Positions 1-35,182 of a DNA stretch of 35,182 nt are shown here, piece after piece (positions within the stretch are counted from its first letter, which is position 1; the number at the start of each line of letters is the position of its first letter). The notes beneath the pieces are model-generated. The model saw nothing but the letters and a program-made list of their open reading frames with translations, was not told where the DNA came from and searched no databases. This DNA comes from a virus. The stretch spans positions 1 to 35,182 of the IMG/VR virus record IMGVR_UViG_3300011583_000001. One strand, 5' to 3'. The position numbers and the translations under genes were made by a program.

Positions 1-63
1 AAATATACCAGAAGCAGGTGTATTTACTTGGTCTTCGGCATTTACAGTACTTTTAACATATAT
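1..63. repeat. Terminal direct repeat, copy 1 (identical to 35120..35182)
   Basis: Base-by-base comparison gives aaatataccagaagcaggtgtatttacttggtcttcggcatttacagtacttttaacatatat at both ends. Confidence 0.95.
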
Positions 64-20612: not shown

Positions 20613-20629
20613 CCTCCCTTAAATTAATA

Positions 20630-20649
20630 ATATCACACTAGCGTGATAT
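20630..20649. promoter_or_regulatory. Operator-like inverted repeat ATATCAC-N6-GTGATAT
   Basis: Lies in the divergent cI/cro-like intergenic region. Confidence 0.5.
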
Positions 20650-20663
20650 GTCAACAATAATTT

Positions 20664-20678
20664 GTGATAAAAAATCAC
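20664..20678. promoter_or_regulatory. Operator-like inverted repeat GTGAT-aaaaa-ATCAC
   Basis: Uses the same half-site family as the two neighbouring sites. Confidence 0.45.
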
Positions 20679-20745
20679 TTAAATTTTACAATTAAGATAG
20701 ACTTATTTTAATATTTTTTATTATAAAACATATGTTCCGTTTTAA

Positions 20746-20765
20746 TTATCACACATGTGTGATAA
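20746..20765. promoter_or_regulatory. Operator-like perfect 20-bp palindrome TTATCACACATGTGTGATAA
   Basis: A perfect palindrome 27 nt upstream of the cI-like start. Confidence 0.55.
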
Positions 20766-20791
20766 AATTTAATTAATTTACAGGTGATTTT

Positions 20792-21160
20792 ATGGAGGAT
20801 ATTATGAAAGGATCTATTTTGAAAAAACTACGTAAGGATGCAGGGCTTACACAAAATGAATTAGGTGAAAAGCTTAAGTTAAGTCCTAGTACAATAAGAA
20901 TGATTGAGCTTGACGAACGCAAAGGTAATAGCCAAACACTTGCTAAAATTGCTAAATTTTTTAATGTTAGTGAGGATTATCTAGAAGGTAGAGAGTTGGA
21001 TGAAGAGGATTTGAAACTTAAGAATTTTCTTGAATTGTTGGTTAAAGAAAATATAATTACAGATACAAATAATATACCTGAAAATATTCAAACTATAATT
21101 ATGTATAATATTAAACAAGAATTAGACCGTATAATGAAAGAGACCTCAGAGGATAATTAA
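20792..21160 (+). CDS. cI-like XRE-family HTH repressor (no peptidase domain)
   Basis: LKKLRKDAGLTQNELGEKLKLSPSTIRMIE. One of the few plus-strand genes, and divergent from the cro-like gene. Confidence 0.65.
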   Translation: MEDIMKGSILKKLRKDAGLTQNELGEKLKLSPSTIRMIELDERKGNSQTLAKIAKFFNVSEDYLEGRELDEEDLKLKNFLELLVKENIITDTNNIPENIQTIIMYNIKQELDRIMKETSEDN

Positions 21161-21395: not shown

Positions 21396-21566
21396 TTATA
21401 GTGGTGGTAATGTGCCCGGATCTGTGCTTAAATTTATTATTCTTAATGGTGGCAATGTACCTGGGTCTTTTCCAGCATAGTTTTTCAAATTAGATGTATT
21501 GCTAGATAATACAAGTGTTAAAGCTAATACTAACCCTAAGAATAATCCTGCTCTTTTTTTATTCAT
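21396..21566 (-). CDS. Secreted signalling pro-peptide (56 aa) carrying DPGTLPPL twice
   Basis: AAGGAG 8 nt before the ATG. Translation: MNKKRAGLFLGLVLALTLVLSSNTSNLKNYAGKDPGTLPPLRIINLSTDPGTLPPL. It starts 33 nt downstream of the receptor gene on the same strand. Confidence 0.7.
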   Translation of the reverse strand: MNKKRAGLFLGLVLALTLVLSSNTSNLKNYAGKDPGTLPPLRIINLSTDPGTLPPL

Positions 21567-21599
21567 TAAATCAACTCCTTTAACACTATTATATCACTT

Positions 21600-22844
21600 T
21601 TATACTTTTTGTGCTATTTTTATTACTTTATATAATAAATTTTTATCGTTTATGTGATTTATACATGACACAATTGTGCTATCTTGTATAAAATAATCAT
21701 ACCTATTTTTTAAATATACTATGAATTTAACTAAATCATCATCCATCTTATTTTCAATGCAATAATTTAAAATTTGTAAAACTAATTTGTTTTGAACTAT
21801 ATCATCATTTAAATCTTTAGCTAAGCTCATAGAAAAATTAAAACTATATTTTATACTTTCTATGTTATTTTCCTCTATGCTTAGTAAAAGCTTATTATAA
21901 TAGCAATTCAATATAAACTTCTTATTCTTACACCTACTTGTTAATTCAATTGATTTATTTATATACTTTTTAGCAAGTTCTATGTCACTCTTTAGATATA
22001 GATCTCCTATATCACTATAACTGTTTGCCATATATTCAATATTATTAATTTCACCACTTTTATTTATTATATTCTCATATATTTTTATTGCATCATCTTT
22101 ATTCCCTAACTCTCCTTTACATGTAGCTTGTAAAGAAAGAAAAAATAGCTCTGTTTCTTTATTGTTAAAAGAAATAATTGACTTTAGACAAACTTCACAA
22201 TCTTTGTATTGTTTAAGATGATAGTGAGCATTTGCAATATTTCCAAAAAAATTTTCTTTCTGTTCATTTGTAGCATTTTTGTGTACTTCGTTTGAAAATG
22301 ACTTTCCTATGCTAACCACTGCTCTATACTGATTCTGAATGAAATGTGCCCGTATTAAATAATTAAGTACCTCTATGCGGATATAATCTGTTAAGTTGTA
22401 ATTTAATAGCTTGTAACAATAATTGCATATTTCTTCATTATATTTATAAATATCTGTATTTAAGATCTCTAAAGTTTTAATTATAAATTCTATGGCTTCA
22501 TCACTATTCAAGTTAAAAATTATTTGATTTATTTCTTCAAAAATCGTATCTTCATTTTCACGTGTTTTTAATTTGTAAAGCGCATCATCTATTAATATAC
22601 TTGTCCACCCCATTAATAAATCTTCTGTTACTTCATAATCAAGTATTACGCATTTTTCTTTTATAATTTCATTTATTTTTTTGCATAATCTTTTAGCTAC
22701 TAGGTATGACATCTGTGTTTCGCCGTTTTCCAATCTTGAAACATTCTGTAAACCTTCGCATTTCAAATCCTTTTGCTTTAAACTCAGATCTGCTCGTATT
22801 TTTCTTAAAATGCTACCACTTATATGTTTATCCTCCAGACTCAT
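21600..22844 (-). CDS. RRNPP-type (AimR/PlcR-like) HTH plus TPR-like peptide receptor
   Basis: N-terminal XRE HTH and about 340 aa of repeated helix pairs. GGGAGGA ribosome-binding site. Confidence 0.7.
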   Translation of the reverse strand: MSLEDKHISGSILRKIRADLSLKQKDLKCEGLQNVSRLENGETQMSYLVAKRLCKKINEIIKEKCVILDYEVTEDLLMGWTSILIDDALYKLKTRENEDTIFEEINQIIFNLNSDEAIEFIIKTLEILNTDIYKYNEEICNYCYKLLNYNLTDYIRIEVLNYLIRAHFIQNQYRAVVSIGKSFSNEVHKNATNEQKENFFGNIANAHYHLKQYKDCEVCLKSIISFNNKETELFFLSLQATCKGELGNKDDAIKIYENIINKSGEINNIEYMANSYSDIGDLYLKSDIELAKKYINKSIELTSRCKNKKFILNCYYNKLLLSIEENNIESIKYSFNFSMSLAKDLNDDIVQNKLVLQILNYCIENKMDDDLVKFIVYLKNRYDYFIQDSTIVSCINHINDKNLLYKVIKIAQKV

Positions 22845-24509: not shown

Positions 24510-25376
24510 ATGTCAAAAATTATAACCATTAATGATATCAATACTACTAAATTCTATCAAGTACCAAAATCATTTTTTCATAATCCGTTATATATTGATA
24601 TGAAGAACGAAAGTAAAATAGCATATTCTATATTAAGAGATCTATTAGAACTTTCTTTGAAAAATAATTGGGTTAATGATAATGGAGAAGTGTATGTAAA
24701 GTTAAGTAGGTATAAAATGATGAAATACCTTAATATAAAAGGTACTGCAAAATATGCTGAAGTTATGAAAGAACTTAATGAAAAAGGTTTGATAGTTAAA
24801 AAGAGAATAGGACTTAATAAGGTAGATGAAACTTATATATGTATTCCTGAAGAAATGTCTGTTATATATAATGATGAAGAATTATTAGTTGCCGATAACA
24901 AGGAAATGGATACTTCAGATGAAGATAATTCAAGGAGGTTTGAAAATAAAACCTCCGAAGGTTTGAAAATAAAACCTCCAAAGGTTTCAAAATCAAACCT
25001 TAAAAGGTTTCAAAAACAAACACATACTAAGACTAATATTACTAAGACTAATATTACTAAGACTAACAATACTACCCAGCAAGAACTTGCTTGTAGTGAA
25101 ATAGATACTTCTAATAAAGATTTAATAGAAAAAGAAACTCATTTAACACTAAGTCCTAATCAAATTAAGAAAGTAAGTAAGTGGGATATTAAAAAAACAG
25201 ATATATCTATAAAACTCTTTAAAAGAGAAAATGGCGAGTATTTTACTTTATTGGAGAAAATATATAGTGATAGTAGAAACTTTGCTCCTAATATGGCTAA
25301 AAAGGGAAAATTCCATAGTTATGAACAAAGAACCTATGATTTTGAGGAATTGGAATCAAAACTTTTGAAATATTAA
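24510..25376 (+). CDS. RepA_N-family plasmid replication initiator
   Basis: FYQVPKSFFHNPLYIDMKNESKIAYSILRDLLELSLKNNWVNDNGEVYVKLS is a typical RepA_N N-terminus. AAGGAGG ribosome-binding site. Confidence 0.8.
   Translation: MSKIITINDINTTKFYQVPKSFFHNPLYIDMKNESKIAYSILRDLLELSLKNNWVNDNGEVYVKLSRYKMMKYLNIKGTAKYAEVMKELNEKGLIVKKRIGLNKVDETYICIPEEMSVIYNDEELLVADNKEMDTSDEDNSRRFENKTSEGLKIKPPKVSKSNLKRFQKQTHTKTNITKTNITKTNNTTQQELACSEIDTSNKDLIEKETHLTLSPNQIKKVSKWDIKKTDISIKLFKRENGEYFTLLEKIYSDSRNFAPNMAKKGKFHSYEQRTYDFEELESKLLKY
24937..25028. repeat. Four tandem 23-bp iteron-like repeats (GGTTTGAAAATAAAACCTCCRAA, degenerating)
   Basis: Units at 24937, 24960, 24983 and 25006. Each contains GGTTT...AAACC. Confidence 0.8.
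25026..25070. repeat. Three tandem 15-bp repeats ACTAAGACTAATATT (encoding TKTNI repeats)
   Basis: 25026-40 and 25041-55 are identical. 25056-70 has 2 changes. Confidence 0.85.
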
Positions 25377-25951: not shown

Positions 25952-26013
25952 TCGATACACTCCTTCTTATTCATTTCACATTTCCTACAAACTCTTCTTG
26001 TAATACGACTTTA

Positions 26014-26334
26014 TCACTGAATTTTAACATCAATTATTTTTATTAGGTCTTCATCTATAACTTCAAATTTGAAGTCATAATAAACATCTTCCCAACCTTT
26101 ATCTTCATCACCTATCTCAATACAGTGAGAATATTCTTTAATAGATTCATCAGATAAGTACCATTCTTCATCTTCATTTGTAAGCTCTACATTGGTTTTA
26201 AAGTAACCATTAAGCTCTATGGTTAAATTAGTTAAATATGTTTCTTTCCCAATATATTTTTTTCTTAAGAATTCTAAAACATCTTCTTCATCAGCAATAT
26301 TAAATTCGACAACCTTTAATTTTTCCTTATTCAT
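26014..26334 (-). CDS. Hypothetical strongly acidic protein
   Basis: 106 aa, rich in D/E. AAAGGGG ribosome-binding site. Confidence 0.55.
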   Translation of the reverse strand: MNKEKLKVVEFNIADEEDVLEFLRKKYIGKETYLTNLTIELNGYFKTNVELTNEDEEWYLSDESIKEYSHCIEIGDEDKGWEDVYYDFKFEVIDEDLIKIIDVKIQ

Positions 26335-26353
26335 AAACTCGCCCCTTTAATAT

Positions 26354-26569
26354 TTATTTTATATTTGCTTCTTTTAGATCTTCCTCGTAACATTCATCCC
26401 ATTCATTGTTGGGAGTATCATTAAGAATATTTTCTAATGCTTCTATTTGCTCATTTATAGCTTTTTCTCTCCAATCATATTTCCACTTAGTAATATGATT
26501 TAGCTTATTATATTTTTCTTGCATTTCATATAAATAATTTAATTTAGCTTTAATCCTATCTTCCATCAT
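26354..26569 (-). CDS. Hypothetical helical protein
   Basis: 71-aa ORF in the operon. Confidence 0.5.
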   Translation of the reverse strand: MMEDRIKAKLNYLYEMQEKYNKLNHITKWKYDWREKAINEQIEALENILNDTPNNEWDECYEEDLKEANIK

Positions 26570-26582
26570 AATTCCATCCTTC

Positions 26583-26795
26583 CTATTTAAATAACTTCTT
26601 TAATAAATCAAAAATACTAAAACTGGTCTTGTTATATATTTTGTTGTAGGCTGCTTTCTTAGGGTTCTTGATCCATCCCATACCTTTCTTTCCGTATCCT
26701 GGTATAATGGCCTTTTTTACTTTTCTTTTCATTTTTCCTGTTGTCCTGGCTTTAATAGATTTTTTAATTGAAGGTTTTCTCATTCCTATCTTCAT
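26583..26795 (-). CDS. Hypothetical highly basic protein
   Basis: I chose the ATG at 26795, which lies 5 nt after GAGGAGGA. Contains KARTTGKMKRKVKKAIIPGYGKKGMGWIKNPKKAAYNKIY. Confidence 0.5.
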   Translation of the reverse strand: MKIGMRKPSIKKSIKARTTGKMKRKVKKAIIPGYGKKGMGWIKNPKKAAYNKIYNKTSFSIFDLLKKLFK

Positions 26796-27396
26796 TAATA
26801 TCCTCCTCATACCTCTTGGCTAATTTATAAAAAGTAGTTCTTTTTAATTCTAATTGCTCCATGCACTCTTTAGCTGTTATGCTCCCACTCTTCCACTGTA
26901 CATAATACATTTCCCACAATGTAGGATATGTAGCCTTTGGTCTTCCTAAGTGCTTACCTTTTTCTTTAGCTAATTTAATCCCCTCAGCCTGTCGTTTCTT
27001 AATCTTAATTCTTTCTTTTTCAGCCATGTAACTTAGTAATTCAAATACTATATTACTTATTAATGATTTTTCTAGATCACCTTTGTTGGTAGTATTAAGA
27101 ATAGGAGTGTCTAAGACTACAATGTCTATATCCATTTTAATTAAAGAATTCCATTCTTCTTTAATCATATCCATATTTCTTCCTAATCTGTCTAATTCTT
27201 TTATAATAAGTGTATCTCCAGGCCTTAATAATTGTTCTTTTAAAGTTATATATCCATCCCTCTTGAAATCCTTGCCACTTTGTTTATCTTTTATAATATC
27301 TCTTCCATCAACACCATATTCTTTTAATGCTTCTATCTGTCTATCTAAATTTTGTTCTTTTGTACTCACTCTAGCGTATCCATAAATTTTATTCAA
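26764..27396 (-). CDS. Serine recombinase (resolvase/invertase family) with a C-terminal HTH
   Basis: NKIYGYARVSTKEQNLDRQ holds the catalytic Ser motif. I chose the TTG at 27396, which lies 8 nt after GAGGTGA. Confidence 0.8.
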   Translation of the reverse strand: MNKIYGYARVSTKEQNLDRQIEALKEYGVDGRDIIKDKQSGKDFKRDGYITLKEQLLRPGDTLIIKELDRLGRNMDMIKEEWNSLIKMDIDIVVLDTPILNTTNKGDLEKSLISNIVFELLSYMAEKERIKIKKRQAEGIKLAKEKGKHLGRPKATYPTLWEMYYVQWKSGSITAKECMEQLELKRTTFYKLAKRYEEDINEDRNEKTFN

Positions 27397-27516
27397 AAAC
27401 CAATTCACCTCTCTTATATTTTAATTATATCATTTATATTCATAAATGTATATAATTATTTACGAATATATTCAGCATTATTTTTGAACCTTTGCGAATA
27501 TTTTTGCATCTTAATT

Positions 27517-29904
27517 CTATCTGAAATGGAATATTTCTAAAAGTACACCTTTATGTACAAAAATAGGACCATCTCTATGTGGTCCTATTGGCTTAGGTAA
27601 TTTTGTTATAAATGTACTATACCCTTTGCTATATTGAATTATATTTAAGCTAGAGAACTCTTCCATGTCCTTTAAATCTTCATATTCATAAGTGCCATCT
27701 AATTCATCTTTGAAATACTCATAATCCTCTTTTATGGTTCCCTTCAACAGCATGAATGAAGCACCAGCACCTTTAAGACTATAAATTGTTTTCTTATCTA
27801 ATTGATCTAAATATTGCCCTGCTAAAACAAATTTCATACCAAACTTTCTAGTTTGAGTTAATATGTTCTCCATATATCTTTCTGCAGTTTTAGTCTGGCT
27901 TATTTCATCCACGATAATATGTGTTCTCTTAGATCTATCAGATAACTCTCCTCTTAGTTCACATGCCAACCAACATTTGGTTACAATAAATGTAGTTATA
28001 ACATTCTTTACATAATTCTTAAATTTACTTTGTGGCATACTTATTAAAACAACCTTACCTTCTTCCATTGCATCAACGAAGTTTATATTATTATTAGGTT
28101 TTTTATTGAACATCTTTTTTAAATAAAAATCTCTTTTCAATAATGTTATCCTATCTAATATTCCTTCAATTTTACTATCCCTGGTTCCTATCTTCTGAGC
28201 CGGGCAATCATTCCTAGGTTTACTCCATTCATCAAGTTCTTCTAATGTTAATATTTCCTCTTCAAACTCTTCTCTTAATTCATCTGGAATCTTTTCAATT
28301 ATATTTTCTCTGTATTTGTAATCTTGTAAACATCTTATTACATCTTTGAAGGTAGCATCTTCATTTAAATATACTATATCTGTACAAGCACATAGATAAC
28401 GCTCCATCTTTGGAGATAGTGGCTCACCACTTTCATTAATTGAATTAACTAGTTCTATAGTTAATTGTGTTTTCTTATTGGCTAACTGCTGCTTTTCAAA
28501 CCAACTCATTGTTGGACTAAATTTAATTTCATTGTATGCTAATGCTTGTAATCCTTCTTGGGTACTAAAATCTAATACTATTAAATCCTCCTTATTTACT
28601 ACTTTTTCTATAGCTTTACTTGCCTCATTGTTTCTAATAAAATCTAAGTGTACTAAACTCTCTTTTCTTTTCAAACAATCATTTGCATAGTTGCATATAA
28701 AGGTTGTTTTCCCTCCTCCTTGCCTTCCTAGCAACATTAAAGGTAAATTACCTATCTCTTTATGATCCTCTATATAAGCATTTATTTTAGTACCTCTATA
28801 TTTATTTATCCCTAAGTTTATATACCCTTCTCTTAGTTCATTTGGTACCTTATTCTCCTCTGTTTTAATATGATTAATTCCATGTTGGGCAAGTAATGTT
28901 CTTCCTGGTACTTGTATAAGGTTACTTGCTTCATCAGTACTTAAAACACTACTCTTTGTATTAAGATTACTATCTTCTAATTTAAAAGGCTTACATCTAT
29001 CATATTTAAGTTCGTTGTCTTCATCTAGGGTTCTAAAGGCCTGGCATACTGTAACTGCATTGTTAAATTTCCTTGTTTTATCCTTTGATTCACTAGCTAT
29101 AGCTATTTGAGTAGGTAATATAGTTAATTCCTTTTTCTTCTTTGTACTGGTACTTAATTCTCCTTGTTGCTCTAAAACTCCCATTACTGCACTATAGAGG
29201 CTTTGTTTTTCATCTAGCACCTTTCCACCTAAAAAATCATTTAATACTTCTAAGACTCCATCTATCATACTTAGTAATGTTGTTATAGTAACTTTTGCTA
29301 TATGCCCAGGGGATAACGTTGACTTATCTACACTTTTATTTTTCTTTATTTTATCCATTATTTCTTCATATCTATCTATCCAGCCTAATTGACTACAAGG
29401 CATAAAGTTATACATTAATGTTAATCTATCATCATCCTTCATTATGTCCATCACACTTAAGATGCTATTAAGTGGCTCATTGCTTTTCTTGTCTACTGCT
29501 AGGCTTAGAGCATCCTCTTTTTTATAGGATAGCTGATAAAATTCACATTCTTGGGATATTTCTTTAATTGGTTTATCTAATACATTTACAGTTGCCTTAT
29601 TCCATATTTCCTTAATTTTTTCTAATATTATATTTACGTAAGGTTTAGGTACTAAAAAATAGAAGTTAGCATTATCTTTATCAATATCTATTACATAACT
29701 TATTTTAAAATCTGTTTCAAAGAATAACTTCTTTTGCTCTTTTCTTATCCTTTTAGTTATGGATCTATAAGTATGAGCTATAGCTTTTGCTATATTACTG
29801 CTATTATAGTTTCTTATGCTCTTATGTGGAGTTACTTGAATATAAACATATTTAGGTTTTATTAATTCAAAATATTTACCTAGCTTCATACTCCTTTCTT
29901 TCAA
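27517..29904 (-). CDS. 795-aa P-loop NTPase of the FtsK/HerA-VirB4/VirD4 type
   Basis: Walker A LLGRQGGGKTTF near residue 400, Walker B THIIVDEIS near residue 690, then TQTRKFGMKFVLAGQYLDQL. TTG start 8 nt after AGGTGG, abutting the upstream stop. Confidence 0.65.
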   Translation of the reverse strand: MKERSMKLGKYFELIKPKYVYIQVTPHKSIRNYNSSNIAKAIAHTYRSITKRIRKEQKKLFFETDFKISYVIDIDKDNANFYFLVPKPYVNIILEKIKEIWNKATVNVLDKPIKEISQECEFYQLSYKKEDALSLAVDKKSNEPLNSILSVMDIMKDDDRLTLMYNFMPCSQLGWIDRYEEIMDKIKKNKSVDKSTLSPGHIAKVTITTLLSMIDGVLEVLNDFLGGKVLDEKQSLYSAVMGVLEQQGELSTSTKKKKELTILPTQIAIASESKDKTRKFNNAVTVCQAFRTLDEDNELKYDRCKPFKLEDSNLNTKSSVLSTDEASNLIQVPGRTLLAQHGINHIKTEENKVPNELREGYINLGINKYRGTKINAYIEDHKEIGNLPLMLLGRQGGGKTTFICNYANDCLKRKESLVHLDFIRNNEASKAIEKVVNKEDLIVLDFSTQEGLQALAYNEIKFSPTMSWFEKQQLANKKTQLTIELVNSINESGEPLSPKMERYLCACTDIVYLNEDATFKDVIRCLQDYKYRENIIEKIPDELREEFEEEILTLEELDEWSKPRNDCPAQKIGTRDSKIEGILDRITLLKRDFYLKKMFNKKPNNNINFVDAMEEGKVVLISMPQSKFKNYVKNVITTFIVTKCWLACELRGELSDRSKRTHIIVDEISQTKTAERYMENILTQTRKFGMKFVLAGQYLDQLDKKTIYSLKGAGASFMLLKGTIKEDYEYFKDELDGTYEYEDLKDMEEFSSLNIIQYSKGYSTFITKLPKPIGPHRDGPIFVHKGVLLEIFHFR

Positions 29905-30087
29905 TTAAATCGCCACCTTTAAGCATTGTAAAATAAAATATACTACAAAAGATACACTTACATATTTACCAGCTTTTTTCATTCCTGCTATATATAATAT
30001 CAATGCAATAATAGCTACAGATAATGTTATCCAGTATGAATTATCTATAATACCTAAAGCTAATGTTTTAAAAAATTCTCTAATCAT
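29905..30087 (-). CDS. 60-aa protein with two hydrophobic helices (VirB3-like topology)
   Basis: WITLSVAIIALILYIAG and VSVSFVVYFILQCL separated by MKKAGK. GGAGG ribosome-binding site. Confidence 0.55.
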   Translation of the reverse strand: MIREFFKTLALGIIDNSYWITLSVAIIALILYIAGMKKAGKYVSVSFVVYFILQCLKVAI

Positions 30088-30101
30088 ATTGAATACCTCC
30101 C

Positions 30102-30569
30102 CTACTTTGCAAATGTTTCTTGAACTGTATCAAAGGCCCAAGGCATTATATAAAGAGTTGCAAAAGCTAAAACATACTTTATTATTATTTTACCTATATT
30201 GCCCATATTATCTCCACCACGAGTAACTTCTTTCCCAACTTCAAGGCATCCCTTAATTAAACATACCCAATACATACCTACTCTAACTATATCCAAAAAT
30301 TTTCTTCCAAGTGCATTTATAGGTTCTGTTCCTGTTGCGTATGCTATTTGTGAATTGCCAAGTAAAACTCCTAATAATATACCTAAAATAATAGTTAAGC
30401 ATTTATAAGTATTTGGATTTAATCTTCCTATCTCAAAATCCAAGTCATTAATCATTTTAATTTCTGCTAGATTTAATTCACCATTTCTATAAGATCTATA
30501 TTGTTCAAAAGTCATTCCTACTTCAATATTAGATTTTTCTATTAAGCAATTAATTAAATTTCTTTTCAT
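30102..30569 (-). CDS. Membrane protein with a signal-anchor and two further helices (VirB2/TrbC-like topology)
   Basis: CLTIILGILLGVLLGNSQIAYATG, then VGMYWVCLIKGCL and IIIKYVLAFATLYIMPWAF. I prefer the second ATG (30569), after GGAGG. Confidence 0.5.
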   Translation of the reverse strand: MKRNLINCLIEKSNIEVGMTFEQYRSYRNGELNLAEIKMINDLDFEIGRLNPNTYKCLTIILGILLGVLLGNSQIAYATGTEPINALGRKFLDIVRVGMYWVCLIKGCLEVGKEVTRGGDNMGNIGKIIIKYVLAFATLYIMPWAFDTVQETFAK

Positions 30570-30639
30570 AATCTCCTCCATGAATAAAATTAATTTTTAA
30601 GGGTAAACTATTAATAAAATTTATCGGAGGTGTTTCTTA

Positions 30640-30702
30640 ATGAGTATTTGGGCCTTTGTTGGTATATATGCATTATTAGAAGTTGCTGTAAGATTAATGT
30701 AA
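30640..30702 (+). CDS. 20-aa hydrophobic peptide ORF (MSIWAFVGIYALLEVAVRLM)
   Basis: GGAGGTG 7 nt before the ATG. A plus-strand island with its own terminator. Confidence 0.35.
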   Translation: MSIWAFVGIYALLEVAVRLM

Positions 30703-30799
30703 ATTATTTGTTAATATATATGATTTATCTTCTAAATTAGTAATCTTTTTATATACTCGTGCATATACTTGTAGTGTACAACGTAACGTACAAGTTATT

Positions 30800-30839
30800 T
30801 AGCCTTAGTCTAGCTATCTAGATTACAGGCTATTTTTTT
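30800..30839 (+). terminator. Rho-independent terminator of the small plus-strand unit
   Basis: Long imperfect hairpin tagcct...aggcta with an inner tctag/ctaga stem, followed by ttttttt. Confidence 0.6.
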
Positions 30840-30868
30840 ATGAATTAATCCATATGTGTCCATTGTAG

Positions 30869-31045
30869 TCATTCAATATCTTCAAATTCTTCATCATCTA
30901 GTACTGAAATAGGAATTACTCCTTTTAAAATATCTTTTATAGTTGCTGCTGGATTAGAAAAAACTAATAATTTCTGATATAACTCTAAATCTTCCACACT
31001 AGTTTTTTTGAATTCTAAAACTATTCTCAGCCTTTCATTTGCCAT
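30869..31045 (-). CDS. Hypothetical 58-aa protein (possible ribbon-helix-helix) with an acidic tail
   Basis: MANERLRIVLEFKK... The ATG lies 7 nt after GGAGGG. Confidence 0.45.
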   Translation of the reverse strand: MANERLRIVLEFKKTSVEDLELYQKLLVFSNPAATIKDILKGVIPISVLDDEEFEDIE

Positions 31046-31134
31046 TCCTTTTCCCTCCATTATATCCTTTAGTATTTATAATATATATTATGCAACTATG
31101 TATATTTGTGTTACCATTGTAGACTTAAATTTTT

Positions 31135-31174
31135 ATAAAAAAATAAAGGGTAGCAAGTTTTATCTTACTACCCT
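31135..31174 (-). terminator. Terminator after the endolysin gene
   Basis: agggtagcaag/cttactaccct stem (1 mismatch) followed on the minus strand by TTATTTTTTT. Confidence 0.6.
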
Positions 31175-31182
31175 CTAAAATC

Positions 31183-32040
31183 TTATTTTAAATGTTCATA
31201 TACTGCCTGTGCAGTTTCATTTCTTCCTGGACCATAATAGTGCTTACTAGCTTTCATATCTTTTAATCCTCCGCCGATAGCATGTACTGAAGTACCTCTG
31301 ATAAATCCTTTACCATATTCCACATCATCCACACATATAGAGTCCTCCTTTTTAGCATTAAGAACTCTATTGAAGAACTCTGCTGTAACCTGATCTGCAG
31401 TGCCTTTCTTATATACTATAACATTTCTATACTTCTTAACATTAACAGTATTGTTATTAGTCTTAATAGCAATTCCAAAATGCTTTAATACGCCATGAGC
31501 TATTACTACCCCATTCCTCTTTTGCTCTGCTACTGTATCCGCTATTTGAACATCTTTTTTATTATCTAAGAAACATACCTCTACTATTATTGCATCCATA
31601 CTAGTGTATTTTATAACATAGTAGTAATCTTTATTATCGCTACCTTTCTTTTCATACACCTTTTTTTGTTGTCCTAATTTAACAGCCATTTCATCAAGGA
31701 TGGTATTTGCAAGTGCTTGACCTTTACCTCTGTAAATAGAATGTATTCCCTCTGCTCTATCTCCTCCACCGGCATTATGGTGTATAGATACAAAAACAAT
31801 CTCTGCCCCTGGATATTGTTGTGCTATTTTATTAGCAAATTGAACTCTTGCTTCAAGGCTCATAGCTACATCTGTAGTCCTAGTTATAAATACTTTAATT
31901 CCATGCCTTTCTGCTTCTGCTTTAAGTGCTAAAGCAGTATTAAGATTAGCAACTTTTTCAACTATACCATTACCTACGGCTCCTGGATCACTTCCACCAT
32001 GTCCAACATCAATAATTAATATTTTTAAATTTTTACTCAT
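31183..32040 (-). CDS. Endolysin: N-acetylmuramoyl-L-alanine amidase (Amidase_3-type) plus a C-terminal binding domain
   Basis: LIIDVGHGGSDPGAVGNG...VSIHHNAGGG...VEVCFLDN. Confidence 0.8.
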   Translation of the reverse strand: MSKNLKILIIDVGHGGSDPGAVGNGIVEKVANLNTALALKAEAERHGIKVFITRTTDVAMSLEARVQFANKIAQQYPGAEIVFVSIHHNAGGGDRAEGIHSIYRGKGQALANTILDEMAVKLGQQKKVYEKKGSDNKDYYYVIKYTSMDAIIVEVCFLDNKKDVQIADTVAEQKRNGVVIAHGVLKHFGIAIKTNNNTVNVKKYRNVIVYKKGTADQVTAEFFNRVLNAKKEDSICVDDVEYGKGFIRGTSVHAIGGGLKDMKASKHYYGPGRNETAQAVYEHLK

Positions 32041-32100
32041 AACCTATTCCTCCTTAAATTTAGATAAAATAAAAGAGTAGGATCACTCCCACTCTGTAAA

Positions 32101-32517
32101 CTAATTATTTAATTCTTTCTTTTCTCCATCCTTAAGTTGTGCTAATGCATCTTTTATCTTCTCTGGTATAGGTAATCCAAGTCCAGCACAATTCTCTAAT
32201 AGGCTAATTCCCTCATTGGCAATATAAAAGTAACACACCAATGTTCTAAATACCCAGGTACCCGTATTAAGCAATCTATCTAACATTACTGCAACTATTA
32301 GAACTACAAATATAACTGCTTTTCTTGCTATACCTCTTAAGCCTATGTCTGAACTTACTTCCTTGTTAATCCATGCTCTTAATAAGCCCGTAGCATAGTC
32401 TAATGCCATAAAGAGTATCAATACCACTATTGCAGTGTCCCATGTTCCTAATAGCCACGTTACACCTGTTCCTAAAGTCATTATCATTAGTTTAATGTAG
32501 TTTAATATTTTATCCAT
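32101..32517 (-). CDS. Holin (holin-4 / TcdE-like family)
   Basis: 138 aa, multi-TM. DYATGLLRAWINKEVSSDIGLRGIARKAVIF motif. Directly upstream of the endolysin gene. Confidence 0.75.
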   Translation of the reverse strand: MDKILNYIKLMIMTLGTGVTWLLGTWDTAIVVLILFMALDYATGLLRAWINKEVSSDIGLRGIARKAVIFVVLIVAVMLDRLLNTGTWVFRTLVCYFYIANEGISLLENCAGLGLPIPEKIKDALAQLKDGEKKELNN

Positions 32518-32604: not shown

Positions 32605-33879
32605 CTATTGTAAACTTTTGTTCTTATAAATTTCTAATGTGGATATATACCATCCTGCTAAAACTAAGCCTAAAAAAGTAGAAGATATTGCTTCTAGAAA
32701 CACATGACCTCCTAATAAACTAAAAATCAAAAGAACTATAGTGGCAACAAAATACGGTTTACATTGCCTATGTCTACGATATCTAAAATTAAAACATAAT
32801 TTTTTAATAACATATCCATAAGTCAATGATACTCCTATAATTCCATATGAATAAAAGATATCAAATAGATCTAGTTCTATAGGTCTTACTTCATTTAAGC
32901 CTTGTCCCCAAATTACTGCAATGCCATTGTGTATATTAAAATATCCACTACCAAATATACCTTTAAATATATTGAAGTCATTAAAAAATATATCTGTGCC
33001 TGTTTCTAATAGCCAGTTTCTCCCACTAAGTAAATAACTTACTAAATCTCTGTTTTCAAATAAATGCTTCTGTCTTCCGATTAATTCACTAATATATCCT
33101 CTATTTATTAAACTATCAAATTCATTATTTATTAATATAAATACACCTAAAATTGTTACAATCATAAATATGGAATATAAATATACTAATCTCCTCAAAG
33201 TTAGCTTTCGGGGTTTAAAGTGTATATTCATAGCTATGTATATAATAGGTATAAAAATCAAGAATATTAAACTCGATTTTGTTCCTAATAAAACCATAGG
33301 ATATACAATAGCTATATTAATAAATAACCATCTAATTTTACTTTTTGAATTTATTAAATTATCAAAAGCAAATACAAATAATACTATTAATGCAACGTTA
33401 ATTGAATTCAATGATAAGAAGGTTGATTTAAATCCTAATGATATATTTGCATAGCTAGTTTCCCCAATCTTTAAAACATAAGATATTAAAAATAAAAATG
33501 GTGTATAATAAAGATTGTTTAATATTATTTTATTAACATTACCTAGAGTGAATTTATTATTAATATATAAGCTCTTAATGGATTTAAATATTAATATATA
33601 ATAAATAGCCTTAAGTATCATTCTAGAGTCAAATATTATTCCATTTATATTTGATTTTACCATAAATGATATTGCTGCATTTAATATTAGAAATAAAGCC
33701 ATAAATATAACTAAATTAATTTCATCTCTCTTGTATTTAATTATAATTAATACACTTAATATAATAATTAATATCCTATAAACCTCACCTATAGGAAGTT
33801 TAACCCATATTCCATTTATAAAATCAATTAAAATTGTTATGGATAACAAATTATATAAAACTTTTCCGTATTTACTCAT
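32605..33879 (-). CDS. Polytopic membrane protein, O-antigen ligase/polymerase (Wzy)-like
   Basis: About 10 or more hydrophobic helices and a large loop region. The ATG at 33879 follows GGAGGG. It has its own promoter and terminator. Confidence 0.5.
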   Translation of the reverse strand: MSKYGKVLYNLLSITILIDFINGIWVKLPIGEVYRILIIILSVLIIIKYKRDEINLVIFMALFLILNAAISFMVKSNINGIIFDSRMILKAIYYILIFKSIKSLYINNKFTLGNVNKIILNNLYYTPFLFLISYVLKIGETSYANISLGFKSTFLSLNSINVALIVLFVFAFDNLINSKSKIRWLFINIAIVYPMVLLGTKSSLIFLIFIPIIYIAMNIHFKPRKLTLRRLVYLYSIFMIVTILGVFILINNEFDSLINRGYISELIGRQKHLFENRDLVSYLLSGRNWLLETGTDIFFNDFNIFKGIFGSGYFNIHNGIAVIWGQGLNEVRPIELDLFDIFYSYGIIGVSLTYGYVIKKLCFNFRYRRHRQCKPYFVATIVLLIFSLLGGHVFLEAISSTFLGLVLAGWYISTLEIYKNKSLQ

Positions 33880-33910
33880 TTCACCCTCCAATAAAAACTA
33901 TTGCTATATA

Positions 33911-33985: not shown

Positions 33986-35182
33986 CTATATTGCTTTAAA
34001 TCTAATCCTAACAACGTGATTATTATTTGTTACATAAGGTTTTATTCCACCACCACTTGATATCTCACAATAGGCAGTTGTTCCATTGGTAATATAATCA
34101 AACCTTAACAATGCAGATGGTCTAAAGCCAACTGGAAGTACACAGCAATCAGTTCCTAAAGTTCCACTATTTGCTATAATATCTACATTTACATACCCTT
34201 CACTATCCCTATAGTATGTTCCCGTAGTGTTAGTAACCCATGCGTTTAGTGGTGTTATATTTACAAGTGATGTAGGTTGTTTTAATTTTACATCATAGCT
34301 AGGGTTTCCAGATTCATAAAAATCAGTTGTTGAATTGTCATGTAAATTTGGGAAATATACTTTATTCTTAGTTCCACTTATAACTGAAAGACCATATTTT
34401 TGTAATTTAACATCCCTATTATCCCAACATTCAACTTGACCTATTTTTGAGCCCACATTCTGATTTAACATTATTCCAGAACCATAAACATTATTTGAAA
34501 TATTATTGTTCCAACACTTAACATTATCACCTACATCAACCTTACAATTCATATCTGACCATATTCCAGAAACATAACTTTCGTAAAAGTCACAAAAATC
34601 AATTTTACAATCCAGACTATTTGTGAACACAATACCATGCCCTCCTGTATTTCCTTTGGATTTTCCATTAATTAACTTACATCGGTTAGCGGTATCAACT
34701 TTAATATTATTTCTTTTGTTTGTTTCTACAATAAAATTAATAATTTGAACGTCATTACTTCCCACAATAGTCACACCTTCGTAGTCATTATCCTTCGCAT
34801 TGATATTTGTAAATAGCCCTCTGTGTGCAGGAAATCCAACATGACCAAAGTTTACACCACTATATTTAGAATATGAGGATATAAAATTCCCACCAGAACA
34901 ATCTTCTCCATTTATACTTATATTTGAATATCCATTATTATCCGATGTTAGATTCCAAAACTCACTTCCATCGCATTTATTAGAACTTATTCCACTTCCT
35001 AAATTGTAAGAAGTTTTTGATTTATCAATTCTAACTTTGGAATTGCTAACGAATATGGCTGTTCCTTTATTGTTTTTACCATCTAAATACTCTGCAATTA
35101 TATTTATACAGTCTTTAAAAAATATACCAGAAGCAGGTGTATTTACTTGGTCTTCGGCATTTACAGTACTTTTAACATATAT
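33986..35182 (-). CDS. Tail fibre / receptor-binding protein, C-terminal part (parallel beta-helix, pectate-lyase/depolymerase-like); the last 63 nt duplicate 1..63
   Basis: The frame is open from 35182 down to the stop at 33986 (checked by hand). It contains repetitive N/G/S-rich beta-helix rungs (GGHGIVFTNSLDCKIDFCDFY, NNISNNVYGSGIMLNQN). Joined to 1..939 it gives a 690-aa protein. Confidence 0.7.
   Translation of the reverse strand: MYVKSTVNAEDQVNTPASGIFFKDCINIIAEYLDGKNNKGTAIFVSNSKVRIDKSKTSYNLGSGISSNKCDGSEFWNLTSDNNGYSNISINGEDCSGGNFISSYSKYSGVNFGHVGFPAHRGLFTNINAKDNDYEGVTIVGSNDVQIINFIVETNKRNNIKVDTANRCKLINGKSKGNTGGHGIVFTNSLDCKIDFCDFYESYVSGIWSDMNCKVDVGDNVKCWNNNISNNVYGSGIMLNQNVGSKIGQVECWDNRDVKLQKYGLSVISGTKNKVYFPNLHDNSTTDFYESGNPSYDVKLKQPTSLVNITPLNAWVTNTTGTYYRDSEGYVNVDIIANSGTLGTDCCVLPVGFRPSALLRFDYITNGTTAYCEISSGGGIKPYVTNNNHVVRIRFKAI
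35120..35182. repeat. Terminal direct repeat, copy 2
   Basis: Identical to 1..63. Confidence 0.95.

What the first reader, a model, noticed from the sequence alone, without database searches (positions are those of the whole stretch)
27517..30581. Orphan three-gene module resembling VirB2/VirB3/VirB4 inside a tailed phage-plasmid
Seen in the sequence: three tightly coupled minus-strand genes. The first (30102..30569) encodes a protein with a roughly 60-aa soluble N-terminus and a signal-anchor ending in AYATG. Two hydrophobic helices follow, separated by a charged loop. The second (29905..30087) is a 60-aa protein with two helices. The third (27517..29904) is a 795-aa P-loop NTPase whose TTG start abuts the preceding stop. 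It has a Walker A (GRQGGGKTT) around residue 400 and a Walker B (IIVDEIS) around residue 690. Then comes TRKFGMKFVLAGQYLDQL, the ARK-x-G...TQ-like motif seen in VirB4/VirD4/FtsK-HerA ATPases. Established knowledge: the order pilin-like VirB2, small VirB3, roughly 800-aa VirB4 is the conserved core synteny of type IV secretion systems. Seen: I could find no relaxase, VirB6/VirB8-like protein, coupling protein or cell-wall hydrolase nearby, and the phage already has its own TerL. Inference: the module is either a remnant or minimal DNA/protein translocation device, or a membrane-coupled ATPase system with another role such as exclusion or defence. Conjugation-type genes are unusual cargo for a tailed phage-plasmid. 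A serine recombinase gene and a set of small unknown ORFs flank the module, which suggests an acquired accessory island.
Basis: partly seen in the sequence, partly recalled or inferred. Interest (0 to 1): 0.7.

Follow-up and report, generated by a model that had tools for sequence, protein, structure and literature searches.

The report
Phage-borne minimal VirB2/VirB4-like membrane ATPase cassette
The three genes are real and belong to a four-gene cassette (small DNA-binding-type protein, pilin-like protein, tiny membrane protein, VirB4-fold ATPase) that is common in viruses of Bacillus and Clostridium, was already noticed in the model phages SPP1 and SPO1, and still has no known function.

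Summary
Three tightly coupled minus-strand genes encode a prepilin-like membrane protein (30102-30569), a 60-aa two-helix membrane protein (29905-30087) and a large P-loop ATPase (27517-29889/29904).

The ATPase matches no VirB4 sequence model. Its predicted fold, however, matches R388 TrwK/VirB4 best, and the N-terminal domain modelled alone matches only VirB4. The pilin-like protein links to TrbC/VirB2 weakly. The 60-aa protein is "VirB3-like" only by size, topology and position.

The module is not an orphan, a remnant or unusual cargo.
- The ATPase is PHROG 5156, homologous over its full length to SPP1 gp32 and SPO1 gp27.4.
- In 61 related loci the order pilin-like, small membrane protein, ATPase is conserved.
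- A small ParR-position gene (here 30869-31045) almost always precedes the trio, often directly after ParM or TubZ partition genes.
- Almost all hosts named in phage and plasmid records are endospore-forming Firmicutes.

The window is a complete 35.1-kb genome. No relaxase, coupling protein, VirB6 or VirB8 was recognised among the ORFs screened.

Published work shows the SPP1 and 0305phi8-36 versions are dispensable in the laboratory and proposes a translocon of unknown role. Verdict: a new Clostridium member of a known, uncharacterised phage cassette.

The parts
31144..31177 (-). Intrinsic-terminator-like hairpin (14-bp stem plus T run) after the endolysin gene. It marks the upstream boundary of the cassette.
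   Evidence: sequence
30869..31045 (-). 58-aa conserved small protein (MANERLRIVLEF...). It is a homologue of the genes that sit in the ParR position after ParM in related loci. A ribbon-helix-helix DNA-binding fold is inferred but not confirmed. It is either the regulator of the cassette or its DNA adaptor.
   Evidence: Direct phmmer hits to ParM-adjacent genes (L027 3.8e-11, L009 3.3e-7) and to a TubZ-adjacent gene (L022 6.6e-10). With iteration the family is found in 45-55 of 61 loci, just upstream of the pilin-like gene. No Pfam or PHROG hit.
30582..30868 (-). 287-nt non-coding leader between the small gene and the pilin-like gene. It is a possible promoter or operator region. A CACCUCC stretch could pair with the downstream GGAGGAG ribosome-binding site. 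No known RNA family matched.
   Evidence: fold z-score only -1.7; weak
30102..30569 (-). 155-aa prepilin-like membrane protein. It has a long leader, a signal-peptidase-type site (IAYA|TG), and a mature part of about 80 aa with two hydrophobic helices and a charged loop. It is VirB2/TrbC-like.
   Evidence: PF04956 hits in 6 of 21 family members, none for this protein itself. The distant subgroup carries PF04956 and the name 'TrbC/VirB2 family'. hhalign of the core group against the TrbC-positive group gave E 8.4e-4 over the whole mature part.
29905..30087 (-). 60-aa two-helix membrane protein in the VirB3 position, with the conserved motif SYWIxL...LYIxGxKKAGKYV.
   Evidence: The family was found in 46 of 61 loci, always between the pilin-like gene and the ATPase. 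No VirB3, PrgI or TcpE profile hit.
27517..29904 (-). VirB4-fold P-loop ATPase with no transmembrane segment. It is 790 aa from the likely ATG at 29889; the ORF extends to TTG 29904. It has a VirB4-like N-terminal domain (about residues 1-350) and a RecA-like C-terminal domain, with Walker A at 393-400, Walker B at 663-669 and RK at 686-687.

Best explanation
What it is (shown): the Clostridium phage-plasmid version of a conserved, self-contained accessory cassette carried by phages of endospore-forming Firmicutes. Known counterparts are SPP1 genes 31, 31.1, 31.2 and 32, SPO1 gene 27.4 with its neighbours, and 0305phi8-36 orf201. The cassette derives from the inner-membrane core of type IV secretion systems.

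How it most likely works (inferred):
- The soluble VirB4-fold ATPase forms an oligomer. It docks on the cytoplasmic face of the membrane through the 60-aa two-helix protein, as VirB4 docks on VirB3.
- The 155-aa protein inserts into the membrane and signal peptidase removes its long leader after IAYA.
- ATP hydrolysis extracts and assembles the mature two-helix subunit into a short filament or conduit. This is the known job of VirB4 with VirB2.
- The small ParR-position protein either represses the operon or binds phage DNA and presents it to the machine.

Probable role (speculative): handling of the phage or plasmid genome at the membrane. This could mean transfer or anchoring during asymmetric division and sporulation, or contact-dependent transfer between cells. 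The reasons are the near-restriction of the cassette to phages of spore-formers and its constant linkage to DNA-segregation genes.
For: Identity and homology:
- Full-length match to phrog_5156, E 4e-118.
- Homologous to SPP1 gp32 at hhalign probability 100, E 1.7e-50, over 742 columns.
- Homologous to SPO1 gp27.4 at E 4e-27.

Fold:
- The full-length AF2 model (pLDDT 78) matches TrwK/VirB4 first (E 1e-14). HerA (1e-10) and TrwB (3e-9) follow.
- The N-terminal-domain model (pLDDT 88) matches only TrwK/VirB4 at probability >=0.97.
- The same N-terminal domain occurs in Bacillus phages JL, Slash and G.

Pilin-like protein:
- Conserved leader, small-x-small site and two helices.
- PF04956 signals.
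- 2-3 tandem paralogues in L025/L026, as expected of a structural subunit.

Operon conservation: the pilin-like family is in 57 of 61 loci and the small membrane protein in 46 of 61, always in the same order and strand.

Linkage to segregation genes:
- ParM lies within 4 kb in 35 of 61 loci.
- TubZ is adjacent in 3 of 61.
- The ParR-position protein is present in 45-55 of 61.

Host distribution:
- All but one of the 79 and 146 phage records hit are from Bacillus, Geobacillus, Lysinibacillus, Alicyclobacillus, Brevibacillus, Clostridium or Terrisporobacter.
- The TerL control finds 478 Streptococcus, 283 Staphylococcus, 154 Lactococcus and 146 Enterococcus phage records in the same collection.

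Literature:
- SPP1 genes 31.2 and 32 are non-essential and transcribed early. A 'trans-membrane translocon' was proposed (PMC6316719).
- Deleting the 0305phi8-36 operon gives no laboratory growth defect (PMC3357382).

The role of VirB4 in dislocating VirB2 pilin and assembling the pilus is from my own knowledge of the T4SS literature.
Against: - No VirB4 sequence model matches the ATPase. Profile searches against PDB sequences give only weak P-loop matches: DptH 2.6e-4, TrwB 0.012, VirB4 2.6.
- hhalign to pCW3 TcpF, TcpD and TcpE is not significant.
- TM-scores to VirB4 are modest (0.3-0.42). I could not see which residues Foldseek aligned.
- The window's own pilin-like protein has no Pfam hit. 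The link between the core group and TrbC is weak (probability 24%).
- The 60-aa protein has no VirB3 signal.
- No VirB6-like channel protein is present, so a filament or conduit may not form.
- The sporulation link rests on host distribution alone. Paenibacillus phages lack the cassette. A few MAG contigs are binned as Cetobacterium, Brachyspira or Coprobacillaceae. Spo0A boxes are not enriched.
- No centromere-like repeat array was found next to the small gene.
- No experiment assigns any function to the cassette.
Confidence: 0.5

Rival explanations
1. Superinfection exclusion or defence. The membrane proteins and the ATPase would be made early or from the prophage. They would block or reverse DNA entry by competing phages or plasmids at the cytoplasmic membrane.
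For: - The cassette is non-essential and transcribed early in SPP1.
- It sits in the accessory region between the lysis and lysogeny modules, where such genes are common.
- The P-loop domain resembles PADLOC mad8 (E 4.8e-12) and DptH and HerA of defence systems.
Against: - The mad8, DptH and HerA similarity covers only the shared ATPase domain, whereas the N-terminal domain is VirB4-like.
- No nuclease or other effector gene is conserved with the cassette.
- The constant linkage to ParM, TubZ and ParR-type genes and the restriction to spore-former phages are not explained.
- Known exclusion proteins (own knowledge) are small membrane proteins without an 800-aa motor and a pilin.
Confidence: 0.15
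2. A working, very reduced conjugation system. The cassette would transfer the phage-plasmid itself between cells. The adjacent serine recombinase, or host or co-resident elements, would supply DNA processing.
For: - The components are T4SS-type.
- In SPO1 and 0305phi8-36 the ATPase is followed by a Replic_Relax/MobC-like putative relaxase.
- Pathria et al. proposed virion-independent spread (PMC3357382).
- A distant two-gene version sits on the large C. botulinum toxin plasmids, which are conjugative.
Against: - The window is a complete 35.1-kb genome. Among the ORFs screened, none matched a relaxase, a coupling protein with membrane anchor, VirB6, VirB8 or a dedicated hydrolase. The structural genes and a few small ORFs were not screened, and the 428-aa polytopic membrane protein upstream of the holin has no database match at all.
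- The recombinase flank is present in only 2 of 61 loci and Replic_Relax only in SPO1.
- pCLK and pCLJ carry separate TraG/TraK-like genes elsewhere.
- MOB-suite of the 38 plasmids that carry a homologue non-mobilizable.
Confidence: 0.1
3. The ATPase is a coupling-protein or FtsK-type double-stranded-DNA pump, as existing annotations say ('TraD/VirD4', 'type IV secretion system DNA-binding domain'). The small proteins would be only its membrane anchors, with no pilin function.
For: - Pfam TrwB_AAD_bind scores 22.3 bits against a cutoff of 20.5, at residues 616-713.
- TraD gives a weak hit.
- TrwB is the second-best solved structure by profile, with good superposition of the C-terminal domain (TMt 0.55-0.61).
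- HHpred results reported for SPP1 gp32.
Against: - The ATPase has no N-terminal transmembrane helices.
- The 350-residue N-terminal domain matches VirB4 and nothing else.
- The best full-length matches are VirB4.
- The TrwB match covers only the Walker B / RK-Q region, which is shared by the whole VirB4/VirD4/HerA clade.
Confidence: 0.1
4. Decaying remnant of a conjugative T4SS captured by the phage-plasmid and no longer functional.
For: Only three T4SS-like genes are present and the rest of the system is missing.
Against: - The same minimal set is intact in 61 loci at 20-75% ATPase identity, with invariant catalytic residues and tight gene coupling.
- It occurs in strictly lytic phages with compact genomes.
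- The pilin-like gene is duplicated in some relatives.
- There are no frameshifts or stops in the window.
Confidence: 0.03

Closest known systems
SPP1 early genes 31, 31.1, 31.2 and 32 (Godinho et al. 2018, PMC6316719); also Geobacillus phage GBK2 and phrog_5156
   Same: - The ATPase is homologous over its full length (hhalign E 1.7e-50).
- The gene order is the same: a small soluble protein, a membrane protein with a leader and hydrophobic helices, a 2-TM protein, then the ATPase.
- The cassette sits just after the lysis genes.
- The authors proposed a membrane translocon and showed that genes 31.2 and 32 are non-essential.
   Different: - ATPase identity is only about 22%.
- The small proteins are too diverged for profile detection.
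- SPP1 is strictly lytic, whereas this element is a RepA_N/ParM phage-plasmid.
- The paper reported similarity to TrwB, VirB4 and FtsK only for the C-terminus. The VirB4-like N-terminal domain and the TrbC link are added here.
'DNA translocation operon' of Bacillus phage 0305phi8-36 and SPO1 gp27.3-gp27.9 (Pathria et al. 2012, PMC3357382)
   Same: - SPO1 gp27.4 belongs to the same ATPase family (E 4e-27).
- A ParM/MreB-like gene (gp27.9) and small membrane proteins lie next to it.
- Deleting the operon in 0305phi8-36 gave no laboratory phenotype.
   Different: - Those phages add a Replic_Relax/MobC-like putative relaxase (gp27.3, Pfam E 2.9e-12) and, in 0305phi8-36, a VirB6-like protein. Neither is present here.
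- The authors called the ATPase a coupling protein.
VirB2-VirB3-VirB4 core of bacterial type IV secretion systems (R388 TrwL/TrwM/TrwK; pCW3 TcpD-TcpE-TcpF in Clostridium)
   Same: - The gene order is pilin-like, small membrane protein, then an ATPase of about 800 aa (pCW3 layout).
- The ATPase has a VirB4-type two-domain fold.
- The prepilin has a TrbC/VirB2-type anatomy.
   Different: - No sequence-model membership for the ATPase or the 60-aa protein.
- No VirB6, VirB8, VirB1-type hydrolase, coupling protein or relaxase was recognised in the genome.
- The cassette is carried by tailed phages and is linked to ParR/ParM/TubZ genes.
Archaeal Ced/Ted DNA-import systems (VirB2-like pilin CedA1, VirB6-like CedA, VirB4/HerA-like CedB). 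This comparison rests on my own knowledge and was not tested here.
   Same: It is a precedent for a very reduced T4SS-derived machine, built around a VirB2-like subunit and a VirB4-like ATPase, that moves DNA without a relaxase or coupling protein.
   Different: - It is archaeal and chromosomal.
- It includes a polytopic VirB6-like channel protein, which is missing here.
- No sequence comparison was made.

Membership tests
VirB4 (T4SS ATPase) | Significant match to VirB4 sequence models (Pfam CagE_TrbE_VirB or AAA_10; NCBIfam VirB4 families) or to VirB4 sequences | tested here: not met
   - No such Pfam or NCBIfam hit.
- Family profile against the Thermoanaerobacter VirB4 sequence: E 2.6.
- hhalign against pCW3 TcpF: probability 4%.
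VirB4 (T4SS ATPase) | Two-domain architecture: a VirB4-specific N-terminal domain plus a RecA-like C-terminal ATPase domain, with no transmembrane helix | tested here: met
   - Full-length model: the ten best PDB hits are all TrwK/VirB4, E 1e-14 to 6e-11.
- N-terminal-domain model: the seven hits at E<1e-3 are all TrwK/VirB4, with TMq 0.35-0.42.
- No hydrophobic segment.
- Caveat: TM-scores are modest and the aligned residue ranges were not visible.
VirB4 (T4SS ATPase) | Walker A, Walker B and the RK...Q motif of the VirB4/VirD4 clade | tested here: met
   - G393-T400, D666/E667, R686/K687 and Q701 are invariant or nearly invariant.
- They align to TrwB 'KGRKAGLRVVAGLQS'.
VirB4 (T4SS ATPase) | Encoded together with the other mating-pair-formation genes (VirB6, VirB8, hydrolase) and usually a coupling protein and relaxase | tested here: not met
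   - The genome is complete at 35.1 kb.
- Pfam scans of about 30 ORFs, plus the precomputed Pfam hits in L021, show none of these genes.
- Only the phage endolysin is nearby.
TrbC/VirB2 pilin (PF04956) | Match to PF04956 at or above the gathering score | tested here: not met
   - The window protein has no hit.
- Close-group relatives are sub-threshold: L007 2.9e-4 at 21.4 bits against a cutoff of 27.9, and L013 0.012.
- The distant pCLK-type subgroup carries PF04956.
- hhalign of the core group against that subgroup: E 8.4e-4, probability 24%.
TrbC/VirB2 pilin (PF04956) | Long leader, signal-peptidase site, and a mature part of about 70-80 aa with two hydrophobic helices and a short charged loop | tested here: met
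   Hydropathy analysis and alignment. A small-x-small site is conserved at the end of the first hydrophobic segment, and a Pro is invariant in helix 2. Cleavage itself was not tested.
TrbC/VirB2 pilin (PF04956) | Polymerises into a pilus or conduit | not testable with these tools
   Needs microscopy or biochemistry. Tandem paralogues in L025/L026 are only suggestive.
VirB3 / PrgI / TcpE | Profile similarity to VirB3-type proteins | tested here: not met
   - No VirB3, PrgI or TcpE Pfam hit in 14 family members.
- hhalign against TcpE: probability 0.4%.
VirB3 / PrgI / TcpE | Small membrane protein encoded directly upstream of, and binding, the VirB4 N-terminal domain | tested here: inconclusive
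   Position and two-helix topology fit in 46 of 61 loci.
SPP1 gp31-gp32 / SPO1 gp27.4 phage cassette (phrog_5156) | ATPase homologous over its full length to gp32 and gp27.4 | tested here: met
   - phrog_5156 E 4e-118.
- hhalign against gp32: probability 100, E 1.7e-50.
- tblastn to SPO1: E 4e-27 at 90% coverage.
SPP1 gp31-gp32 / SPO1 gp27.4 phage cassette (phrog_5156) | ATPase preceded by a small soluble protein and membrane proteins in the same order | tested here: met
   The order and topologies are the same in SPP1 and in 46-57 of 61 loci. Sequence homology of the two membrane proteins to SPP1 gp31.1 and gp31.2 is not detectable.
Type IV coupling protein (VirD4/TraG/TraD/TrwB) | N-terminal transmembrane anchor plus a nucleotide-binding domain, with no VirB4-type N-terminal domain | tested here: not met
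   - No TM segment.
- The N-terminal domain is VirB4-like.
- Only a local TrwB_AAD_bind hit at 616-713.
Anti-phage defence ATPases (MADS mad8; HerA/DptH-type) | Full-length match and co-occurrence with the partner genes of the system | tested here: not met
   - The mad8 hit covers only residues 388-750.
- The two small proteins gave no PADLOC hit, and no nuclease, Sir2 or methylase partner is conserved across the related loci.

The most novel reading that the evidence does not exclude
The cassette is a virus-encoded, minimal T4SS-derived DNA conduit specific to endospore-forming hosts. The ParR-like protein marks the phage or plasmid genome. ParM or TubZ filaments bring the genome to the pole. 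The VirB4-like motor, with its pilin-like and 2-TM partners, then carries or tethers it across or at the asymmetric septum (or into a neighbouring cell). This would ensure that lytic phages and plasmid prophages alike are carried into spores, a dedicated viral 'virospore' entry machine.
Probability: 0.15. Interest if true: 0.85.

Novelty: new member of a known kind. Interest (0 to 1): 0.45.

Why it matters
The cassette is widespread. It has 276 representative clusters at E<=1e-30 and occurs in well over a hundred sequenced Bacillus and Clostridium phages, in many clostridial phage-plasmids, and in a two-gene form on botulinum-toxin plasmids. It sits in two of the best-studied Gram-positive phages, SPP1 and SPO1, yet its function has been open since at least 2012.

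This work adds four points:
- The ATPase carries a VirB4-type N-terminal domain.
- Its partner is TrbC/VirB2-like.
- A ParR-type gene belongs to the unit.
- The cassette tracks spore-forming hosts and partition genes.

Together these turn a vague 'putative translocon' into testable hypotheses in tractable systems (B. subtilis with SPP1 or SPO1). The hypotheses are spore entrapment, plasmid-prophage inheritance through sporulation, virion-independent genome transfer, and exclusion.

If the cassette moves DNA, it would be a new route of phage persistence or spread, and a minimal model for how VirB4 works with VirB2.

Tried and rejected
- **Near-identical DNA in the phage and plasmid collections:** none found. 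The closest phage is Terrisporobacter TPDSL_ph2 (TerL 68%, ATPase 34%).
- **Single-sequence search of the PDB:** nothing.
- **hhalign of the three families against pCW3 TcpF, TcpD and TcpE:** not significant.
- **hhalign of the two small-protein families against SPP1 gp31.1 and gp31.2:** not significant.
- **Pfam, NCBIfam, PHROG and PADLOC on the two small membrane proteins and the 58-aa protein:** no informative hit. The ribbon-helix-helix assignment therefore stays an inference.
- **Centromere or iteron-like repeats around the small gene:** only weak two-copy matches in AT-rich DNA.
- **Rfam scan of 26000-32500:** nothing near threshold. The leader fold z-score is -1.7.
- **Spo0A boxes:** 2 observed against 0.9 expected, not significant.
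- **Cluster look-up of ten distant representatives for taxonomy:** all were unnamed metagenome sequences.
- **The conjugative C. botulinum plasmids as a functional clue:** they carry separate TraG/TraK-like genes, so they are uninformative.
- **Compositional evidence for recent acquisition:** none.

Full report
**1. The observation**

The three minus-strand ORFs are present as described.

The first gene starts at ATG 30569, behind a GGAGGAG ribosome-binding site, and encodes 155 aa. Its product has these parts:
- a hydrophilic N-terminus of about 55 residues;
- a hydrophobic segment ending in IAYA/TG;
- two hydrophobic helices separated by the charged loop KEVTRGGDNMGN.

The second gene (29905-30087) encodes a 60-aa protein with two hydrophobic helices joined by KKAGK.

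The third ORF (27517-29904) carries these motifs:
- Walker A, GRQGGGKT, at residue 393;
- Walker B, IIVDEIS, at residues 663-669;
- TRKFGMKF starting at residue 685.

R686, K687 and Q701 are invariant in relatives.

Four small corrections apply.
- The ATPase probably starts at ATG 29889 (RBS AAAGGAG), not at the abutting TTG.
- Walker B is near residue 666, not 690.
- The Amidase_3 endolysin and a holin lie immediately upstream and are closed off by a strong terminator-like hairpin.
- A fourth conserved gene, encoding 58 aa at 30869-31045, belongs to the unit.

The window's first 63 bases repeat at its end. It is therefore a complete 35.1-kb genome, circular or terminally redundant. It carries:
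- TerL, tail genes and a lysis cassette;
- RepA_N, and ParM with a small partner gene;
- a small tyrosine recombinase and a serine recombinase.

This fits a phage-plasmid. The same ATPase sequence is on an NCBI contig, GCA_032080425.1. The GC content of the module equals that of the genome.

**2. What the ATPase is**

Sequence libraries give little. The hits are:
- Pfam: a local TrwB_AAD_bind hit (22.3 bits, residues 616-713) and AAA_14;
- NCBIfam: a weak TraD hit;
- PADLOC: mad8, over the P-loop half only.

PHROGs, in contrast, gives a full-length match to phrog_5156, of unknown function, at E 4e-118.

The family is large.
- tblastn finds it in 79 phage records and 38 plasmids.
- The protein database holds 672 relatives at E<=1e-5.
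- A profile search of 1.8 billion representative proteins gives 276 hits at E<=1e-30.

An AlphaFold2 model of the whole protein has pLDDT 78. Its best PDB matches are ranked as follows:

| PDB match | Foldseek E-value |
|---|---|
| R388 TrwK/VirB4 (the ten best matches, near full-length alignment) | 1e-14 to 6e-11 |
| HerA | about 1e-10 |
| TrwB | about 3e-9 |
| VirB4 C-terminal domain, Thermoanaerobacter | 2e-8 |

All of these proteins share the ATPase domain. I therefore modelled residues 1-350 alone with a deeper alignment (pLDDT 88). Its only PDB matches at E<1e-3 and probability >=0.97 are seven TrwK/VirB4 chains, with TMq 0.35-0.42. Of the remaining matches, only one further TrwK chain (probability 0.72) and a few scattered unrelated folds exceed probability 0.5. 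In the viral structure library the same domain appears in Bacillus phages JL, Slash and G.

The protein has no hydrophobic segment.

So the protein is VirB4-like in architecture and fold. It lies outside every VirB4 sequence model.

**3. The two small proteins**

The 155-aa protein has few close relatives. I aligned it with the proteins encoded at the same position in related loci. The alignment shows three conserved features:
- a small-x-small site at the end of the first hydrophobic segment;
- two hydrophobic helices;
- an invariant proline.

Evidence for a TrbC/VirB2 link is as follows.
- Six of 21 aligned proteins hit Pfam TrbC/VirB2 (best E 1.8e-6), and three hit T4SS_pilin.
- Two of the TrbC hits are from the close Clostridium group. 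L007 scores 2.9e-4 and covers model positions 9-97 of 98; L013 scores 0.012. Both are below the gathering score.
- The window protein itself gives no hit.
- The distant subgroup, found on C. botulinum and C. sporogenes plasmids, carries PF04956 and the name 'TrbC/VirB2 family protein'.
- A profile-profile comparison of the core group with that subgroup aligns the whole mature region at E 8.4e-4 but only 24% probability.

I rate the VirB2 likeness as probable. It also rests on the equivalent position next to homologous ATPases.

The 60-aa protein forms a clear family, with the motif SYWIxL...LYIxGxKKAGKYV. It shows no similarity to VirB3, PrgI or TcpE. Only its size, topology and position resemble VirB3.

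**4. Co-occurrence and context**

I collected 61 loci holding an ATPase homologue. HMMs of the two small families gave these counts:
- pilin-like gene in 57 of 61 loci;
- 2-TM gene in 46 of 61 loci.

The order is always pilin-like, then 2-TM, then ATPase, on one strand, with overlapping or near-abutting genes. The loci without the 2-TM gene are mostly the distant group (D6E, pCLK, SPO1, SPP1). In D6E-type phages and pCLK-type plasmids the pilin-like gene abuts the ATPase directly. In SPO1 and SPP1 other small membrane proteins occupy the slot.

Two relatives carry two or three tandem copies of the pilin-like gene.

The 58-aa gene upstream has direct phmmer hits to genes that follow ParM in the ParR position: L027 at 3.8e-11 and L009 at 3.3e-7. 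It also hits a gene that follows TubR-TubZ, L022 at 6.6e-10. With iteration its family is found in 45-55 of 61 loci, always just upstream of the pilin-like gene.

Counts for the neighbouring genes:
- a ParM-like gene lies within 4 kb in 35 of 61 loci, usually directly upstream;
- TubZ is adjacent in 3 loci;
- a serine recombinase follows the ATPase in only 2 loci;
- a Replic_Relax protein follows it only in SPO1.

In this window ParM and its partner lie 3.4 kb downstream, beyond the RepA_N gene.

**5. Absence of the rest of a T4SS**

The genome is complete. Pfam scans of about 30 of its ORFs, plus the precomputed hits for the NCBI twin contig, show no relaxase, coupling protein, VirB6, VirB8 or dedicated hydrolase.

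**6. What is already known**

The family is not new.
- hhalign gives probability 100 and E 1.7e-50 against SPP1 gp32 over 742 columns.
- SPP1 has the same layout: gene 31 (small soluble protein), 31.1 (leader plus hydrophobic helices), 31.2 (2 TM) and 32.

Godinho et al. 2018 (PMC6316719) report four things:
- genes 31.2 and 32 are non-essential;
- the genes lie in the early PE5 transcription unit;
- the C-terminus of gp32 resembles TrwB, VirB4 and FtsK in HHpred;

Pathria et al. 2012 (PMC3357382) described a 'DNA translocation operon' in Bacillus phage 0305phi8-36. Its parts are a putative relaxase, a 'coupling ATPase' equal to SPO1 gp27.4, a VirB6-like protein and an MreB/ParM-like protein. 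Deleting it caused no growth defect.

I found no later functional study. A 2026 paper mentions SPO1's ParM-like gene 27.9 in connection with phage entrapment in spores (PMC12991052).

**7. Host distribution**

With the window ATPase as query, all 79 phage records come from Bacillus, Lysinibacillus, Geobacillus (including deep-sea thermophilic phages), Clostridium or Terrisporobacter.

With SPO1 gp27.4 as query, 145 of 146 records come from Bacillus, Geobacillus, Lysinibacillus, Alicyclobacillus, Brevibacillus or Clostridium. The exception is one Microcystis record.

As a control I searched with the window's TerL. It finds 2,781 records in the same collection, including 478 Streptococcus, 283 Staphylococcus, 154 Lactococcus, 146 Enterococcus and 110 Paenibacillus phages. 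The cassette is therefore absent from a very large sample of phages of non-sporulating Firmicutes that share the same structural gene pool.

The exceptions and caveats are:
- Paenibacillus phages lack the cassette even though their hosts sporulate;
- a few MAG contigs are binned as Cetobacterium, Brachyspira or Coprobacillaceae;
- one plasmid hit is from Methylomagnum;
- no phylogenetic correction was made.

**8. Mechanism**

Shown:
- a VirB4-fold, membrane-anchor-less ATPase;
- a prepilin-like protein and a 2-TM protein co-transcribed with it;
- a ParR-type small protein upstream;
- conservation of the unit;
- dispensability in the laboratory (from the literature).

Inferred: the ATPase oligomer docks on the membrane through the small protein. 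It uses ATP to extract and assemble the processed pilin-like subunit, which is the established role of VirB4 with VirB2 (own knowledge). This would build a minimal filament or conduit.

Speculative: the substrate is the phage or plasmid genome, selected by the ParR-type protein. The pay-off would be carriage into spores or contact-dependent transfer. This reading explains four facts:
- the spore-former restriction;
- the linkage to partition genes;
- the presence of the cassette in both lytic and plasmid-prophage lifestyles;
- the lack of a vegetative phenotype.

It has no direct support. Spo0A boxes are not enriched. No centromere-like repeats were found.

Rivals:
- Superinfection exclusion or defence fits the early, non-essential, membrane-located character. 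It does not explain the VirB4 N-terminal domain, the pilin or the partition linkage.
- True conjugation lacks most required genes.
- A coupling-protein or FtsK-type pump is contradicted by the N-terminal domain and the missing membrane anchor.
- A decaying remnant is contradicted by conservation across 61 loci.

**9. Verdict**

The module is not an orphan, an unusual cargo or an acquired island. It is a standard accessory cassette of phages of Bacillus and Clostridium, already flagged in SPP1, SPO1 and 0305phi8-36. This window adds a new clostridial phage-plasmid member.

The interest lies in the unresolved function of a widespread cassette, and in the sharper hypotheses that the fold, context and host data now allow.

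Noticed in passing
window 21396-22844 (-), with 20364-21160: An RRNPP-type communication pair sits beside the cI/cro-like switch. A 414-aa protein with an N-terminal HTH and TPR repeats (21600-22844) is followed by a 56-aa ORF (21396-21566). That ORF has a signal peptide and a duplicated C-terminal DPGTLPPL motif, so it is a candidate secreted signalling pro-peptide. The arrangement looks like an arbitrium-like lysis-lysogeny or plasmid-control system.
   Followed up: partly
window 1-63 and 35120-35182: The first 63 bases are repeated exactly at the end of the window. The window is therefore a complete 35,119-bp genome, circular or terminally redundant. The NCBI contig that carries the identical ATPase is 32.6 kb.
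   Followed up: yes
window 24936-25074 (inside repA, 24510-25376 +): Two tandem repeat arrays lie inside the RepA_N gene: 23 nt x 3.5 copies at 91% identity and 15 nt x 3.3 copies at 94% identity. They are probably iterons or the origin, as in other RepA_N replicons. The 15-nt array encodes the TKTNI repeats in the protein.
   Followed up: no
window 32605-33891 (-): A 428-aa polytopic membrane protein lies upstream of the holin, in the most AT-rich part of the genome (GC 0.21). It has no Pfam, NCBIfam or PHROG match. It may be a surface-polysaccharide polymerase or ligase-type lysogenic-conversion gene. It is not conserved next to the cassette in other loci.
   Followed up: partly
window 30582-30640 (-): A CACCUCC stretch about 50 nt upstream of the pilin-like gene's GGAGGAG ribosome-binding site pairs with that site in both the MFE and centroid folds. 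This could be a translational control element. The whole-leader fold z-score is only -1.7 and no Rfam family matched.
   Followed up: partly
L025 624-1628 and L026 2488-4655: Relatives of the cassette carry two or three tandem copies of the 146-aa pilin-like gene. In L026 a 52-aa ORF is called upstream of two of the three copies, and L025 shows one such ORF at its start. This suggests major and minor subunits or subunit variation.
   Followed up: no
L022 5434-6786, L039, L040: In some Clostridium phage-plasmid relatives a TubR-TubZ (tubulin-type) partition pair replaces ParM directly upstream of the cassette. The ParR-like small gene is still kept between TubZ and the pilin-like gene.
   Followed up: partly
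L019 7358-8002 (also L058): On contigs binned as Cetobacterium, an extra 214-aa secreted protein with a signal peptide is inserted between the small membrane protein and the ATPase. Its function is unknown. The taxonomic assignment comes from a MAG and may be unreliable.
   Followed up: no
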